From an uncultured Nitrososphaerota archaeon (GTDB taxonomy: Archaea; Thermoproteota; Nitrososphaeria; Nitrososphaerales; Gagatemarchaeaceae), in the NCBI GenBank assembly GCA_963718895.1, contig CAVRAG010000008.1, positions 1,152,001-1,216,000 of the forward strand: a stretch of DNA of 64,000 nucleotides. Direction: 5' to 3'. Below, piece after piece: positions 51,024-57,817 of the stretch. The notes under the pieces are model-generated. The model did no database searches. It saw nothing but the letters and a program-made list of their open reading frames with translations, and had not been told where the DNA came from. Every line of letters begins with the position of its first letter. Within the stretch, counting starts at the first letter, position 1. The position numbers and the translations under genes are program-made.

Positions 51024-54000
51024 TTAACGGGCGAACTGCCTAGCCTCCTCGTTCAGCCTCCGGCAGCAGTACTCCCTCACGGTGTATTCTCTGATGCCGA
51101 GAGTCTCGGCAGCCTCCCGCTGAGAGACGGTCTTGGGCGAGATTGCCAGGGACGCCAGATAGACCGATCCTGCTGCGACGGTCCTGGGGTTGAAGCCGTT
51201 GGGCTCCGCTGCTGAGGCTACGAGCTCCTTCGCGCGCTCGAAGAGGGTCGTGAAGTACTCCTTCGGGTCTGCTTCTGACTTCCTCAGCCGCTCGGCAATC
51301 CTCTCGCTGGATTGCAGCCTGCCGATGGCGGCCTTCACGAAGTCATCCTTGCTGGGATGGGGGAGGTGCATCCCGGACTCGAGGCCTAACTTCAGCAGGT
51401 CGGACTTGCGGACCCTGTAGCCCGCGTCGGTGTAGGCCTTCAGGACCTCCCTGTGGCTGACGTGCACGACACCTGCTGCCCTGCAGGCGTAGAGCTGAGG
51501 TAAGAGTGCGCTGCCACGCCCTTCAAATCGGGCAGGAAACACGCACCCTCCCTCCCAAACCCGGCGTGATACTTTCGCATCACCGGGCTTTCACTCCTAC
51601 GTCTTCCGTCCTCTTCTTGTGCATTAGATGGATTGATTTCAGCTACCTTTCTTGAGGCAGCTTACTGTGGCATTTCGCGCACAATGTCTGAAGATTTTCG
51701 ACTCGGTGCACGACCTGCGGGTCGAAGACCATTCCTCTGGGGACACGTTCTATGTGGTGCGCCTGTAGTTTCTCCCGACTGCTGCACTGGGTACACTTCC
51801 ATCCATCCCTCTCAAACGTCAGAAGGCGGTTGGAGAGATAGGTTTCATCATTGTACTCGGGCGCAACCGGGTGGGCGTTGGGCGCATCTATGATTGGGTC
51901 GTCGGTTTTCTCTGAAATGCTGGTTGCCGTGTGGCTCTGGTTGGTGTACGGATTCCTGATTGACCTGTATTTCCAGATGAGTTTATGGTTCATGGAGGTG
52001 TGCATGCTCGTATTGGAGGTCATCCTGAAGAGTTCAACCTTGATGTCGCCCCTCTGAATGACCACCCTTCCGTTCGTGCACACGGTTGACAGGTACTTCC
52101 CGACACTGATGTGGTACTTCCTTCGGTACCACTGCCGAAACAAGCGTTCGGCGAGGAAGTCTCCTGTCCTGAATTGTTGGTAGGCATTTACTGCTTTGTA
52201 GTAGTTGGCCCATCCCTTCAAGACCCTGTTCATCGCCGCAACCTTCGTCGGGGGGTCATCGCTTATCGCAGCTGTCCCTAACATCGCTTGCAGCTTGTTC
52301 TTGAGACGGGAAAGATTTCGCTGTGTTGGTCGTATTCTGACACAACTGTAGTATCCCATGTTCACCCGCCGGATGTGGAAACCGAGGAAGTCGAATCCAT
52401 TCTCCAGCGGAATGAGTCTTGTCTTCTCTGTTGACAGGTTCAGATTGAGTCTCTCCTTAAAGAAGCTCCGTATGCTGTTCATGACTGCGGTGGCTCCCGC
52501 TTGGGTGCCTTTCACACTCAAGATGAAGTCATCCGCATACCTGAACAGTACACAACTGGCCTGTTCCGTTTTCTGTTGTTGTACTCTCTGCGTCCTTGTG
52601 AGCTTGCCCCAGTATTCATCCCAGAACTGGTCAAACTCGTTGAGGTAGATGTTGGCTAGCAATGGCGAAAGGACACCACCTTGCGGGGTTCCTTTCCGGA
52701 CTTGTACCTGAATGCCATCTTCGATGACGGGTGCCTTAAGGAACTGACGAATCAGCCACAGGATGCTAGTGTCTGCTATCCTTTTCTTGACAGCTCGCAT
52801 TAGTATCTCATGGTCGATGTTGTCAAAGCACCCTTCGATGTCTCCTTCTATGACCCATTCGTATCTTCGGACGTTGTCCCCGTACCGATACATCGGCAAT
52901 ACACACTCCAACGTGCTTCTCTCAGGTCGGAAGCCATTCGAGTTTGGCAGGAAGTCGGCCTCGAAGATTGGTTCAAGAACCATCTTCAAGACCATCTGCA
53001 CGACCCGATCTCTTATCGTTGGGATGCCTATTGGGCGCCTCCCTCCGTTAGCCTTCGGAATGTACTTCCTAAGCACCGGAGAGGGGTGATATGTTCGCTG
53101 TTTCAGCTCTGTACGCAGTTCTTCGACAAATCTGGCCCTAGCAGACGGCTCGTGCAGGTCTGCCCCGCACACTCCGTCCACACCTGAGGTCTTCGCGCCA
53201 GCGTTGTCTAGAACCGCTTCGAGAGCCGAGTTGAGCCACTCTCTTTTCCAGAGTAGCGAATGGAGGTTGTAGAATTGCTTGCTTGGTCGTAGTGTTGCGA
53301 TTCTTGCGAGTCCACTCTGGATGCAGAGAATGGCTCTGCCTTCCCTCTTGCGGGGGACTACCGATGATTGCTCATCGGTTTTGTTGTTTGAGCCCATTCT
53401 CTCACCTCCTTTTGTGTTTCGTGGACTGAATCCATCCTTTGCACAGTTCGGACTTCGGATTTCGGACTAGAGTCCTTCCCCACAGGTCGGTAATTGGCCG
53501 ACATTCAGGGTACTATGACTCCTCGGAGCCAACCCAGTCAAATCAGACGCAGCCGTCCTATCCACTCGCCCTTTATCGACGAGAGGCAGACCGGGTTGGG
53601 TCTCACGTTCTGTAAGGAGCACGTCTGTAGACGGATTTAGGCACCCACCAGTATTCGGGAAGATTCCGCCACGCCGGGCGGTTCTCGCCTTCCTAAAGGA
53701 AGGGGATTTGCCATTCCTCTCACTGCACAGGAATGGTAACCCTCCATGTCGTGCGCCCTTCTATCCTAGTGTCTTCGCACGACCGGCCTACTATCTGTTG
53801 TGGGTTCCTTATCGTTGCCATGTCCGTCCTTAGGTCGCCGTCTCGGGAACCTAGGCTGTTCCCTTATCGGCTGTCTATGTCTGGGGCTAGCCCCATGCTG
53901 GGCTCTGCTCAGAGCCCAACATGCCAGACGACTTTCACCTTCGGGAGTCCAAACCTTACGGCTGTGGACGCCCAGCCCTACCTACTGTAGTGTGGGATGA

Positions 54001-57000: not shown

Positions 57001-57817
57001 GAATGACTCTGCCTTCGTCCTTGCGGACTACTGGACTCAGCGATTGCTCACCGAGCTTATTGTTTAAGTCCATTCTCTCACCTCCTTTTTTGTGTTTCGT
57101 GGACTGAATCCATCCTTTGCACAGTTCGGACTTCGGATTTCGGGCTAGAGTCCTTCCCCGCAGGTCGGTAATTAGCCGACGTTCAGGGTACTATGACTCC
57201 TCGGAGCCAACCCGGTCAAATCGGACGCAGCTGTCCTATCCACTCGCCCTTTATCGACGAGAGGCAGACCGAATTGGGTCTCACGTTCTGCAGGGAGCAC
57301 ATCTACAGACAGGTTTAGGCACCCACCAGTGACCGAGAGAGCCCCGGCACGTCGGCTGGTTCTCGCCTTCCTGCGGAAGGGGATTTGCCACACTATGGTC
57401 TCGTAAAGTGTGGTGGTTCTCTATACCATGCGCGCCTCGTCCTATCCTAGCGTCTTCGCATGGCGCAGGGACATTCTGTTGTGGGTTCCTTATCGTTGCC
57501 TTGCCTGTCCTCAGGTCGCCGCCTCGAATGCCTAGGCTGCACTCTTTGCGGCTGTCTATGTCTGGGGCTAGCCCCATGCCGGACTCTGCTCAGAGTCCAA
57601 CACGCCAGACGACTTTCACCTTCGGGAGTCCTGACCTCACGGTCGAGGACGCCCAGCCCTACCAGCTGCTTTCGCAGCCCTTCGGGCATTGCTCCTTACA
57701 GCGGGGAAGTGGCTTATTCAGCTACTTCCTTTCGTGACGCGCGAGGCCTTCCCTGCACTCCGGGCACCTGCCCAGGATGCTGTACTCCTCGTACGCGGCC
57801 AGCTCTCGTCCGTCCAC
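51024..57817 (-). CDS. TFB-like gene copy 2, three exons (57817-57743, 54806-54429, 51494-51024)
   Basis: Exons align to 14027-15004; junctions EGL|VYA and YSL|LYA are in frame; exon 2 is 378 nt; start approximate. Confidence 0.85.
51643..53397 (-). CDS. ltrA: Group II intron RT/maturase with HNH endonuclease
   Basis: GIPTIRDRVVQ, GTPQGGVLSPLLANIYL, RYADD and CxxC...HH...N...CxxCH; GGAGGTGA SD. Confidence 0.95.
   Translation of the reverse strand: MGSNNKTDEQSSVVPRKREGRAILCIQSGLARIATLRPSKQFYNLHSLLWKREWLNSALEAVLDNAGAKTSGVDGVCGADLHEPSARARFVEELRTELKQRTYHPSPVLRKYIPKANGGRRPIGIPTIRDRVVQMVLKMVLEPIFEADFLPNSNGFRPERSTLECVLPMYRYGDNVRRYEWVIEGDIEGCFDNIDHEILMRAVKKRIADTSILWLIRQFLKAPVIEDGIQVQVRKGTPQGGVLSPLLANIYLNEFDQFWDEYWGKLTRTQRVQQQKTEQASCVLFRYADDFILSVKGTQAGATAVMNSIRSFFKERLNLNLSTEKTRLIPLENGFDFLGFHIRRVNMGYYSCVRIRPTQRNLSRLKNKLQAMLGTAAISDDPPTKVAAMNRVLKGWANYYKAVNAYQQFRTGDFLAERLFRQWYRRKYHISVGKYLSTVCTNGRVVIQRGDIKVELFRMTSNTSMHTSMNHKLIWKYRSIRNPYTNQSHTATSISEKTDDPIIDAPNAHPVAPEYNDETYLSNRLLTFERDGWKCTQCSSREKLQAHHIERVPRGMVFDPQVVHRVENLQTLCAKCHSKLPQER
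54017..54269 (-). CDS. Two-TM passenger protein inside intron A (frameshift near 54125)
   Basis: MTKQTILGLALILG..., shifted frame TLNYIGIAVLVSAVTIAFASNKW...TN*; motif at 54303-54325. Confidence 0.65.
55049..55342 (+). CDS. Two-TM passenger protein, antisense inside intron B domain IV
   Basis: MKWIQLAPVVGFVLTL...YGYPLPWL...LAVDFLVW; segment absent from intron A. Confidence 0.7.
   Translation: MKWIQLAPVVGFVLTLASLLYVWNPYTWGVTELSYGYPLPWLTSFASVAGTHWAMNVVGLAVDFLVWLAISAAGIFLLSLRSARELLFQRSAWSRLF
55319..57073 (-). CDS. ltrA: Group II intron RT/maturase with HNH endonuclease
   Basis: 584 aa, same motifs as the intron A protein. Confidence 0.95.
   Translation of the reverse strand: MDLNNKLGEQSLSPVVRKDEGRVILHIQSGLAISATRRKDKQFHNLHSLLWRREWLQTALEAVLDNAGAKTSGVDGVCGADLHEPSARARFVEELRTELKQRTYHPSPVLRKYIPKANGKERPIGIPTIRDRVVQMVLKMVLEPIFEADFLPNSNGFRPERSTLECVLPMYRYGNSHNLYQWVIEGDIEGCFDNIDHGILMEAVQKRIADNSILWLIRRFLKAPVIDEGIRTKTRKGTPQGGVLSPLLANIYLNKFDQFWYENWGRLTADQRKKRQRHGQANCVLFRYADDFILSARGTEEGVNAVMDSIRSFFKSKLRLDLSTDKTRVVRLEEGFNFLGFHIQRVHLDYGECVRIRPTQRNLYRLRNKLQSMLGPTASRDEPHMKIAALNRVLRGWANYYTSVNSYQQFRTGDFLAERLFCKWYCRKYKVSVRKFLAQVLSNGKVVVQRRGVKAELFRMASSTSTHTIRNHELLWRYRSIRNPYISQDHKATGIPEENDDPIIDAPNIQPLAPAYDGEIYSSNRLLAFERDGWRCTRCGSREQLQAHHVEPVPKGIFDPEVVHRIANLQTLCAKCHLKQPRPS

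What the first reader, a model, noticed from the sequence alone, without database searches (positions are those of the whole stretch)
51024..57817. TFB-like gene split in frame by two sibling introns retargeted to different sites
Seen: both insertions are phase 0. EBS1/EBS2 differ between the introns and each matches its own 5' exon (A: TCGCTG with one G-U, and CGGCCTAC; B: GGCCTC with one mismatch, and GCAGGGA). Both 3' exons begin NTCTACGC. The intron-free paralog retains the intron B site exactly (GGCCTC|GTCTACGC, ~14923). Inference: double splicing gates a transcription factor, the shared 3' exon reflects protein recognition, and copy 1 is an open homing target.
Basis: partly seen in the sequence, partly recalled or inferred. 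Interest (0 to 1): 0.7.

Follow-up and report, generated by a model that had tools for sequence, protein, structure and literature searches.

The report
Two retargeted introns in archaeal TFB
A transcription-factor-like gene on an integrated mobile element of a peat-soil archaeon is interrupted by two related mobile self-splicing (group II) introns, each aimed at its own site by its own guide sequences; this is a clean example of a known kind of element in a group of archaea where it is hardly described.

Summary
On the minus strand, two full-length group II introns (B: 54807-57742; A: 51495-54428) sit in phase 0 in a divergent TFB/TFIIB-like gene. Removing them gives a 333-codon frame that aligns without gaps to the intronless paralog at 14027-15187. 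Both introns have a domain V/VI hit above the Rfam cut-off and an intact 584-aa RT-maturase-HNH protein. Their variable EBS1/EBS2 loops pair with their own 5' exons and not with each other's.

The gene lies in a tRNA-integrated, integrase-bearing element related to a second one in the window. The introns belong to a separate archaeal clade (Nitrososphaerota, Gagatemarchaeaceae-like genomes). Its members occupy at least five sites in three neighbouring genes of this element family, each with matching guide loops.

Intron A has moved between diverged alleles. Site B is empty in copy 1 and in 17 of 17 metagenome alleles.

A CTACGC motif in the 3' exon is shared by the three sites of the A/B subclade only, which fits protein recognition.

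"Gating" of the factor is only an analogy, and no spliced RNA was seen. Several introns also carry host-derived membrane-protein genes as cargo.

The parts
57743..57865 (-). Exon 1 of the TFB-like gene, from the in-frame ATG at 57865. It ends ...CPECREGL, in the first half of the zinc ribbon.
   Evidence: The start codon conserved in other alleles (57845-57843) is out of frame here because of one extra base near 57801-57805.
54807..57742 (-). Intron B, a group II intron of 2936 nt, phase 0, inserted between GGCCTC and GTCTACGC.
   Evidence: Boundaries. Removing it restores collinearity with copy 1. Its closest relative is L001 at 95% nucleotide identity.
57465..57471 (-). EBS2 of intron B (TCCCTGC). 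It pairs with GCAGGGA at -14..-8 of exon 1.
57397..57402 (-). EBS1 of intron B (GAGACC), in the loop of a covarying hairpin. It pairs with GGCCTC with one A.C mismatch.
55319..57073 (-). Intron-encoded protein B: 584 aa, intact, with RT, maturase (X) and HNH endonuclease domains.
   Evidence: Pfam RVT_1 2.8e-39, GIIM 1.1e-9, HNH 2e-7. TIGR04416 scores 351.6 bits against a cut-off of 300. dN/dS against L001 is 0.19.
54950..55318 (-). Insertion of about 370-390 nt between the IEP stop and domain V. It is present in B but absent from A and L001. It holds only an antisense 132-aa ORF with 2 predicted membrane helices (54944-55342, +).
   Evidence: The atlas look-up was uninformative.
54807..54904 (-). 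Domains V-VI of intron B.
   Evidence: Rfam RF00029, 57.0 bits against a gathering score of 40, model positions 1-77 of 77.
54429..54806 (-). Exon 2 (378 nt). It covers the second half of the zinc ribbon, the linker, and the start of the first cyclin repeat.
   Evidence: It differs from copy 1 at 10 of 378 nt.
51495..54428 (-). Intron A, a group II intron of 2934 nt, phase 0, inserted between TCGCTG and CTCTACGC.
   Evidence: The metagenome allele L097 has a 97%-identical intron at the same site.
53989..54353 (-). Insertion of about 365 nt in a domain I stem-loop of intron A, where B and L001 have a GAAA/GGAA loop. It carries a sense ORF (53982-54269) that starts with a membrane helix.
   Evidence: It is about 50% identical to a small 2-TM protein gene at C8:626141-626394, but the match falls in two frames.
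53784..53791 (-). EBS2 of intron A (GTAGGCCG). It pairs with CGGCCTAC at -14..-7 of exon 2.
53720..53725 (-). EBS1 of intron A (CAGTGA), in a hairpin loop. It pairs with TCGCTG with one G-U.
51643..53397 (-). Intron-encoded protein A: 584 aa, intact, with RT, maturase and HNH domains.
   Evidence: It is 75% identical to IEP B. dN/dS is 0.195 against B and 0.16 against L097.
51494..51592 (-). Domains V-VI of intron A.
   Evidence: Rfam RF00029, 57.3 bits against a gathering score of 40.
51024..51494 (-). Exon 3, covering the rest of cyclin repeat 1, repeat 2 and the stop codon.
14027..15187 (-). Intronless paralog (copy 1) of the TFB-like gene. The empty site B lies between 14924 and 14923. The diverged site A lies between 14546 and 14545.
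   Evidence: Pfam TFIIB repeat scores 26.3 bits against a cut-off of 23.6. The fold search returns TFIIB/TFB chains.
40303..41692 (+). A tRNA gene with a long intron (40303-40443) followed by a tyrosine integrase gene (40496-41692). This is the likely left end of the integrated element that carries the split gene.
   Evidence: Rfam tRNA hit, 53.4 bits. Pfam Phage_integrase, 1.5e-7. A 24/25 repeat of the tRNA 3' end lies about 31.5 kb downstream, outside the window.

Best explanation
Two autonomous group II introns have inserted by retrohoming into one TFB/TFIIB-like gene. Each has a ribozyme and its own RT-maturase-HNH protein, and both belong to one archaeal lineage. The gene lies on a tRNA-integrated, plasmid- or ICE-like element of a Nitrososphaerota (Gagatemarchaeaceae-like) archaeon.

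Each intron finds its own site through its EBS1 and EBS2 loops, which differ completely between the two. The protein probably adds recognition of a CTACGC motif in the 3' exon.

Full-length factor can be made only if both introns splice out of the transcript. An unspliced message stops 6 codons into intron B or 8 codons into intron A.

Shown: the anatomy, the pairings, the in-silico restoration of the frame, purifying selection on exons and IEPs, horizontal movement of intron A between diverged alleles, and relatives at other sites of the same element family.

Inferred: that both introns still splice and move in this cell, and that the factor is functional. Dependence on splicing is most likely a passive cost of two selfish elements rather than an evolved switch.
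For: Ribozyme cores: RF00029 scores 57.3 and 57.0 bits against a gathering score of 40.

IEPs: both are intact, with RVT_1, GIIM and HNH domains. IEP B, the one scanned, scores 351.6 on TIGR04416 against a cut-off of 300.

Frame restoration: the spliced frame is gap-free against copy 1. dN/dS is 0.21.

Own-site pairing: A pairs at 14/14 positions and B at 12/13, while cross-pairing is at most 2 positions per loop. The loops sit next to or inside hairpins with compensatory changes; 7 of 21 pairs changed on both sides and stayed paired. The same loops match the exons of G144a, G109 and G168.

Mobility of intron A: the L097 allele has a 97%-identical intron A at the same site and an empty site B. 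IEP dS is 0.075, while exon dS is 0.33.

Other alleles with an intron at site B: P0067 ends ...CPECREGL|ACHERK, and P0035 reads ...ALLPQ|VYTGEERTEL.

Family: 10 of 201 genomes of the order have a match, counting the window's own genome; 8 of 40 genomes in its family have one. The eight archaeal IEPs form one clade with SH-aLRT support of 100 in a quick tree.

Mobile-element context: integrase beside a tRNA, ArdC-like genes, and a TraG/VirD4-like gene in the sister element.

TFB identity: model pLDDT is 80.5 and the top fold hits are all TFIIB/TFB.
Against: No spliced RNA was seen. Contigs of two metatranscriptome runs cover parts of both IEP genes and of exon 2 but give no exon-exon joint at the intron borders. 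Contigs cannot show absence.

The start codon that is in frame in 15 of 15 metagenome alleles is out of frame in this copy because of one extra base. The neighbouring ArdC-like gene is frameshifted at about 49737. So the element may be decaying, or the assembly may carry indel errors. Every contig of runs X1 and X2 laid over 57801-57805 lacks one base there.

Intron B has an A.C mismatch in EBS1 and an extra insertion before domain V.

Site B is empty in copy 1, 38 kb away, and in 17 of 17 metagenome alleles that span it.

Most of the exon divergence used for dN/dS predates the insertions. It therefore does not prove selection since the introns arrived.

The intron ends (GCGCG...CAG) depart from the usual GUGYG...AY, a consensus I recall rather than tested.
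Confidence: 0.8

Rival explanations
1. Regulatory gating. The two introns act as an evolved switch. The element's TFB-like factor, and through it element gene expression or transfer, turns on only when both maturases allow splicing.
For: There is a bacterial precedent. The abstracts of PMC1874635, PMC7293003 and PMC6003770 (listing) say that splicing of Ll.LtrB from a relaxase transcript controls relaxase expression and conjugation. Here both introns interrupt essential parts of the protein: the zinc ribbon and a helix of the first cyclin repeat.
Against: Nothing in the sequence points to regulation. In 17 of 18 metagenome alleles the gene has no intron at all, and the 18th has only A. Copy 1 in the same genome is intronless. 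Relatives of these introns sit in other genes of the element. That pattern is what opportunistic selfish insertion predicts.
Confidence: 0.1
2. A dead gene in a decaying element. Copy 2 is already a pseudogene, and the introns are recent or inert passengers whose splicing no longer matters.
For: The conserved start codon is out of frame. The adjacent ArdC-like gene is frameshifted. The cargo ORF of intron A matches its host homolog in two different frames. No spliced RNA was seen. The genome holds a truncated intron remnant on contig C4.
Against: All three exons stay open, and an in-frame ATG exists at 57865. Both IEPs are intact, with dN/dS of 0.16-0.20. Both window copies carry single-base indels, and short-read contigs disagree with the window at one of them. 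That pattern fits assembly indel errors as well as it fits decay.
Confidence: 0.15
3. The shared 3' exon (TCTACGC) is coincidence or reflects codon constraint (V/L-Y-A), not target recognition by the intron protein.
For: The 3' exons of other family members differ: GACAGGAC, AGCCCAAG, CTTGCATC. In L001 the motif lies 4 nt further downstream. The test was made after the motif had been seen.
Against: At least 7 of 8 shared bases occurs in 0.1% of phase-0 position pairs. CTACGC has a genome-wide rate of 2.4e-4 per position, yet it lies within +3..+12 at all three distinct sites of the A/B subclade. Introns A and B hold no complement of it.
Confidence: 0.3

Closest known systems
Ll.LtrB group II intron in the relaxase gene of Lactococcus lactis conjugative elements (abstracts of PMC1874635, PMC7293003 and PMC6003770, seen in the listing)
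   Same: An RT-maturase-endonuclease group II intron sits inside a protein gene of a transferable element. The host protein is made only after splicing. Target choice uses EBS/IBS pairing plus protein contacts; that last point is recalled knowledge.
   Different: Ll.LtrB is bacterial, a single intron, and sits in a relaxase gene. Here the host is an archaeon, two introns share one TFB-like gene, and the IEP is only distantly related to LtrA (5g2x, E 3e-54).
Thermosynechococcus elongatus intron family, including T.el4h (abstract of PMC2882425 in the listings; solved IEP 6me0)
   Same: A family of related introns that spread to many sites in a genome. Its IEP is the closest solved structure to IEP B (6me0_C, E 1.7e-56, residues 58-429).
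   Different: It is a cyanobacterial family. I read only the abstract of that paper. Here the family is confined, as far as I searched, to one element family in Nitrososphaerota genomes, and several members carry extra genes.
Archaeal group II introns of Methanomicrobia and Thermoplasmatota (PMC8919778, passages read) and the survey preprint 10.1101/2024.12.10.627823 (section 7 read)
   Same: Archaeal hosts, few copies per genome, and IEP clades separate from the bacterial ones.
   Different: PMC8919778 found archaeal introns concentrated in Halobacterota and Thermoplasmatota and none in most other phyla. The preprint reports maturase hits in TACK archaea, but the section I read gives no sites. 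Here the sites, guide loops and host genes are worked out for a Nitrososphaerota lineage.
Trichodesmium erythraeum genes with several group II introns (PMC4649490, passage read)
   Same: Prokaryotic protein genes interrupted by one or more group II introns.
   Different: That host is a cyanobacterium with many introns. Here the whole genome holds exactly two full copies, and both are in the same gene.

Membership tests
Group II intron | Catalytic domain V with domain VI | tested here: met
   RF00029 matches the full model (positions 1-77) at 57.3 and 57.0 bits, against a gathering score of 40.
Group II intron | Intron-encoded reverse transcriptase with maturase (X) domain, here also an En domain | tested here: met
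   RVT_1, GIIM and HNH are present in both 584-aa proteins. TIGR04416 scores 351.6 against a cut-off of 300 for IEP B, the only one scanned.
Group II intron | EBS1/EBS2 loops in domain I that pair with IBS1/IBS2 in the 5' exon | tested here: met
   A pairs at 6/6 and 8/8. B pairs at 5/6 and 7/7. Cross-pairing is at most 2 positions per loop. The flanking stems covary. The same loops match the exons of other family members.
Group II intron | Exact excision restores the host reading frame | tested here: met
   In silico, the result is 333 codons, gap-free against the intronless paralog. L097 fixes the borders without ambiguity.
Group II intron | Usual termini 5' GUGYG and 3' AY (consensus recalled, not from a call) | tested here: not met
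   The termini are GCGCG...CAG in A, B and L097. L001 also begins GCGCG but ends ...TAG. This is a variant of the ends, not a reason to exclude membership.
Group II intron | Structural or IEP class (IIA/IIB/IIC; CL, ML and so on) | tested here: inconclusive
   No Rfam domain I-IV class model matched at E <= 1. The nearest solved IEP is T.el4h. Bacterial relatives are at most 41% identical.
Group II intron | Self-splicing and lariat formation; retrohoming | not testable with these tools
   RNA contigs showed no exon-exon joints. Past mobility of intron A is inferred from dS of 0.075 for the IEP against 0.33 for the exons.
TFB/TFIIB | N-terminal zinc ribbon with four Cys | tested here: inconclusive
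   Pfam Zn_Ribbon_TF scores 19.1 bits, below its cut-off of 29. However, C51 and C54 are invariant and C32 and C35 are at least 90% conserved among 34 homologs. The model shows three strands there.
TFB/TFIIB | Two cyclin-like repeats (core domain) | tested here: met
   Pfam TFIIB repeat scores 26.3 against a cut-off of 23.6, and 25 of 34 homologs match it. The first 29 Foldseek hits are TFIIB, TFB or Brf chains. Pyrococcus TFB 1d3u_B gives TM 0.70 and rmsd 3.8 over 209 columns.
TFB/TFIIB | Equivalence to the cellular initiation factor (NCBIfam NF001658) | tested here: not met
   It scores 36.4 bits against a cut-off of 384. The genome has about ten other loci with TFIIB repeats above the cut-off. 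I therefore call this gene TFB-like, an accessory paralog carried by the element.
Integrated conjugative or plasmid-like element | Integrase beside a tRNA gene, with a repeat of the tRNA end at the far border | tested here: inconclusive
   The integrase (1.5e-7) lies 53 nt after the tRNA. A 24/25 repeat of the tRNA 3' end lies 31.5 kb downstream, outside the window. Neither border was verified.
Integrated conjugative or plasmid-like element | Transfer genes | tested here: inconclusive
   A TraG/VirD4-like protein is encoded at 19080-21506 in the sister element, and both elements have ArdC-like genes. I did not look for the coupling protein of the intron-bearing element. No relative of the TFB-like gene was found in the viral contig collection.

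The most novel reading that the evidence does not exclude
A separate archaeal lineage of group II introns lives on integrative plasmid-like elements of soil Nitrososphaerota and diversifies by retargeting among the backbone genes of those elements. It also ferries host-derived genes for membrane-anchored proteins as cargo. The cargo sits at two permissive positions in the RNA: a domain I stem-loop, and domain IV after the IEP. In this reading the introns are gene vehicles as well as parasites. The doubly split TFB-like gene would then tie expression of the element to the activity of two maturases.
Probability: 0.25. Interest if true: 0.7.

Novelty: new member of a known kind. Interest (0 to 1): 0.5.

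Why it matters
Group II introns are rare in archaea, and surveys place them mainly in methanogens and Thermoplasmatota (PMC8919778, passages read). This locus gives a worked example in Nitrososphaerota, with sites, guide loops, an intronless paralog as an internal control, and population evidence of movement.

It also offers a compact natural system for asking two questions. How does an endonuclease-bearing intron protein choose 3' exon sequence while the RNA guides change? And how does an archaeon, where transcription and translation are coupled, cope with two introns in one reading frame?

If real, the cargo genes would extend what group II introns are known to carry.

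Tried and rejected
1. RNA evidence. Only contigs were available. The two RNA runs (X19, X20) hold pieces of both IEP genes and of exon 2 from relatives (90-99% identity), but no joint at either pair of intron borders. Two RNA joints (52395>56321 and 53468>57125) link homologous places of A and B, and I read them as a related or mosaic intron. The DNA joints in X2 (54805>57742; and 51469>54430 with 26 other letters between) fit intronless copy-1-like alleles, so they are not evidence of intron loss. Parts without cover prove nothing.

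2. Co-conversion. I first took the low divergence of exon 2 (dS 0.077) as a conversion tract tied to homing. I rejected this because the high-identity tract runs from about 14258 to 15400, beyond both sites and into the upstream spacer, and because site B is conserved across distant alleles.

3. RNA pairing as the reason for the shared CTACGC. Introns A and B contain no GCGTAG or GTGTAG.

4. EBS3/delta. The base 5' of EBS1 is complementary to +1 of the 3' exon in A, B and L097 but not in L001. This comes from reading alignments A1, A2 and A4 and is not conclusive.

5. Intron class. No Rfam domain I-IV model matched.

6. Viral origin. There is no relative of the TFB-like gene in viral contigs, and only a 35% relative of the IEP.

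7. The atlas look-up of the antisense ORF in intron B returned only unnamed clusters.

8. ARAGORN missed the tRNA that Rfam finds.

9. The careful tree did not finish in time, so the quick tree is used. Four bacterial rows have very long branches and may be the wrong ORFs.

11. Supplements of the papers were closed. Supplementary Figures 2-3 of the 2024 preprint and Table 2B of PMC8919778 may list introns from this phylum.

Full report
**What is there.** The gene lies on the minus strand. Rfam finds two group II domain V/VI cores, at 51494-51592 and 54807-54904. They score 57.3 and 57.0 bits against a gathering score of 40. Upstream of each core lies an intact 584-aa ORF with reverse transcriptase, maturase and HNH domains. 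IEP B, the one scanned against NCBIfam, also passes the group II RT/maturase model (351.6 bits, cut-off 300). The two proteins are 75% identical and the introns are 79% identical in nucleotides.

Both introns begin GCGCGTCACGAAAG and end CTCTTACCTCAG. That puts intron B at 54807-57742 and intron A at 51495-54428. All three exon lengths are multiples of three. The joined frame has 333 codons, only the terminal stop, and aligns without a gap to the intronless paralog at 14027-15187. The metagenome allele L097 fixes the borders without the one-base ambiguity that site B has.

All of them hold.
- Intron A: EBS1 CAGTGA (53720-53725) pairs with TCGCTG at 6/6 with one G-U. EBS2 GTAGGCCG (53784-53791) pairs with CGGCCTAC at 8/8.
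- Intron B: EBS1 GAGACC (57397-57402) pairs with GGCCTC at 5/6. EBS2 TCCCTGC (57465-57471) pairs with GCAGGGA at 7/7.
- Each intron's loops pair with the other's exon at no more than 2 positions per loop.
- EBS1 sits in the loop of a hairpin and EBS2 just 5' of another. In seven family members, 7 of 21 predicted pairs in these stems changed on both sides and stayed paired, while the loops themselves are hypervariable.
- The 3' exons start CTCTACGC and GTCTACGC.
- GGCCTCGTCTACGC occurs once, at 14916-14929. Copy 1 is identical to site B from -18 to +20. At site A it differs at -1, -10 and +5.

**The host gene.** Copy 1 matches the Pfam TFIIB repeat above its cut-off and the TFIIB zinc ribbon below its cut-off. 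Only 117 representatives among 1.84 billion proteins match at E <= 0.001. Of 34 aligned homologs, 25 match the TFIIB repeat. A model with mean pLDDT 80.5 finds TFIIB, TFB and Brf chains as its first 29 fold hits, including Pyrococcus TFB at TM 0.70.

The gene falls far short of the NCBIfam TFB model (36 bits against 384). The genome has about ten other loci with TFIIB repeats above the cut-off. It is therefore an accessory TFB-like paralog. Site B falls in the first strand of the zinc ribbon (CPECREGL|VYAGEE). Site A falls in a helix of the first cyclin repeat (AYSL|LYACR).

**Context.** The split gene lies about 10 kb from a tRNA gene (40303-40443) that is directly followed by a tyrosine integrase gene. 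A 24/25 repeat of the tRNA 3' end lies 31.5 kb further on, outside the window. About 5 kb around the gene is paralogous, at roughly 79% identity, to 12680-17659. There the gene order is the same: an ArdC-like gene, a small protein gene, then the TFB-like gene. A TraG/VirD4-like gene follows at 19080-21506. So the window holds two related integrated plasmid- or ICE-like elements, and only one has the introns.

**The intron family.** The whole genome holds just these two full copies, plus a truncated remnant on contig C4.

In one genome per species of GTDB, only two IEP relatives exceed 41% identity. One is a contig of a MAG labelled Candidatus Gagatemarchaeum stordalenia (L001, 94% to IEP B). 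The other is from a Nitrosopumilales MAG (L002, 75%). All other hits are bacterial. In 201 genomes of the same order, 10 have a match counting this genome. In its own family, 8 of 40 do. The eight archaeal IEPs form one clade (SH-aLRT 100) on a long stem, with (A, L097) and (B, L001) as pairs. This is a quick tree, and four bacterial rows have doubtful long branches.

Members sit at other sites of the same element family:
- L001 is in the ArdC-like gene (GGCCTC|CGCCGGCTACGC), with the same guide loops as B.
- G144a and G186 are at a second ArdC-like site.
- L095 is in the small protein gene.
- G144b, G168, G109 and L002 are at further sites.

Guide loops track these sites: G144a CGCATGC/GCATGCG, G109 CTCCATT/AATGGAG, G168 CCCTAT/GTAGGG. 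EBS1 of G144a fits its exon only at 4-5 of 6 positions. For G109, and for both loops of G144b, I found no fit by eye. Retargeting by loop change is thus a property of the family, not only of this pair.

**Mobility.** Among 18 metagenome loci with the TFB-like gene, 17 span site B and none is interrupted there. All 18 span site A, and only L097 is interrupted. Six of the 16 loci that could be read at site B are identical to the window from -25 to +20. Eleven of the 16 keep IBS2, IBS1 and the first eight 3' bases.

L097 carries an intron 97% identical to A, with the same guide loops, in an allele whose 5' exon gives two mismatches. IEP dS is 0.075, whereas dS of the flanking exons is 0.33. So intron A entered diverged alleles after they split, which is homing.

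Two protein fragments from the representative library show other alleles with an intron at site B: P0067 (...CPECREGL|ACHERK) and P0035 (...ALLPQ|VYTGEERTEL). I could not learn how many contigs stand behind them. Site B in copy 1 is therefore a fitting but unused target, and use of this site is uncommon.

**The 3' exon.** Sharing at least 7 of 8 bases has a frequency of about 0.1% among phase-0 position pairs in the gene. CTACGC occurs genome-wide at 2.4e-4 per position. Yet it lies at +3, +3 and +7 of the three distinct sites used by the A/B subclade. It is absent from the 3' exons of G186, G168 and L002. Neither intron A nor B holds its complement. Recognition by the HNH-bearing protein is the simplest reading. 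The offset in L001 and the post hoc nature of the test are its weak points.

**Function.** dN/dS between the spliced copy and copy 1 is 0.21. The IEPs give 0.16-0.20. The exon value mostly reflects time before the insertions.

Three points count against function:
- No exon-exon joint was seen in the RNA contigs of two runs.
- The start codon used by 15 of 15 metagenome alleles is out of frame in both window copies, through different single extra bases.
- The ArdC-like gene next to the split gene is frameshifted.

All contigs of X1 and X2 laid over 57801-57805 lack one base there. These frameshifts may therefore be assembly errors. An in-frame ATG at 57865 exists in any case.

No sequence evidence here points to more than passive dependence on splicing.

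**Literature.**
- PMC8919778 (passages read) found archaeal group II introns concentrated in Halobacterota and Thermoplasmatota and none in most other phyla.
- The preprint 10.1101/2024.12.10.627823 (abstract and section 7 read) reports maturase hits in all archaeal supergroups, TACK included, without sites in the section I read.
- The Gagatemarchaeaceae genome paper (PMC10640624) does not contain the words intron, reverse transcriptase, mobile, provirus, integrated or TFB.
- Searches for 'group II intron' with Thaumarchaeota or Nitrososphaeria gave no paper on such introns, judging by titles and abstracts.
- Supplements were closed.

**Verdict.** This is a new member of a known kind, with moderate interest. 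The cargo genes noted in passing raise that interest somewhat.

Noticed in passing
window 53982-54269 (-) in intron A; L097:1221-1709; L100:814-1446; L095:2405-2773; L101 (intron positions about 510-1064); L002:2362-2985; L127:1220-1711 (-): Six of nine family members carry an extra insertion with a sense ORF that starts with a predicted membrane helix. The insertion sits in a domain I stem-loop, or elsewhere upstream of the IEP gene (G168), or after the IEP gene. Some of these ORFs are homologs of free-standing host genes. The L002 cargo is 67% identical over 213 aa to a gene at C4:371011-371649. The G144 cargo is 31% identical over 204 aa to the ORF inside the C4 intron remnant. The intron A cargo is about 50% identical to a small 2-TM protein gene at C8:626141-626394, but the match falls in two frames.
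   Followed up: partly
window 54944-55342 (+), inside intron B: The B-specific insertion before domain V has no sense ORF. It has an antisense 132-aa ORF with two predicted membrane helices. No family was found for it.
   Followed up: partly
window 57801-57805, 57843-57845 and 15002-15026: The start codon conserved in 15 of 15 metagenome alleles (MQGVQG...) is out of frame in both window copies. Each copy has a different single extra base. Short-read contigs of two runs lack the extra base in copy 2. The cause may be assembly indels or real shifts of the start.
   Followed up: partly
window 49730-49744, in ORF 49501-50481 (-): The ArdC-like gene of the intron-bearing element has a +1 frameshift a few codons upstream of the place where L001 carries its intron. 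The conserved C-terminus continues in another frame.
   Followed up: partly
window 40303-41692, and outside the window at +71924 and -20030: A tRNA gene with a long intron (141 nt in all) is found by Rfam but not by ARAGORN, and a tyrosine integrase gene follows it. The tRNA 3' end is repeated (24/25) 31.5 kb downstream. Its 5' end is repeated (25/25) 60 kb upstream. This may mean two elements are integrated on either side of one tRNA gene.
   Followed up: partly
G000 contig C4:246132-246902 (locus L127): A truncated 5' piece of an intron of this family, holding two core segments and a cargo ORF. It lies next to an AAA ATPase gene and has neither an IEP nor domain V.
   Followed up: partly
window 14258-15400 against 51.2-58.2 kb: A mosaic of divergence between the two elements. 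The 5' two-thirds of the TFB-like gene and its upstream spacer are 90-100% identical, while the flanks are 65-80%. A second such tract lies at 17135-17600.
   Followed up: partly
both introns, L001, L002, L097, L101: The intron ends are GCGCG...(C/T)AG rather than the usual GUGYG...AY. A strong GGAGGTGA motif precedes every IEP start codon.
   Followed up: no
G000, contigs C3, C4, C7, C8: About ten further loci have TFIIB repeats above the Pfam cut-off, so this archaeon has many TFB paralogs besides the two element-borne ones.
   Followed up: no
L095:680: One metagenome allele has GGTCTC at site B, which would pair perfectly with EBS1 of intron B. It is nevertheless empty there and carries a related intron in the next gene.
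   Followed up: no
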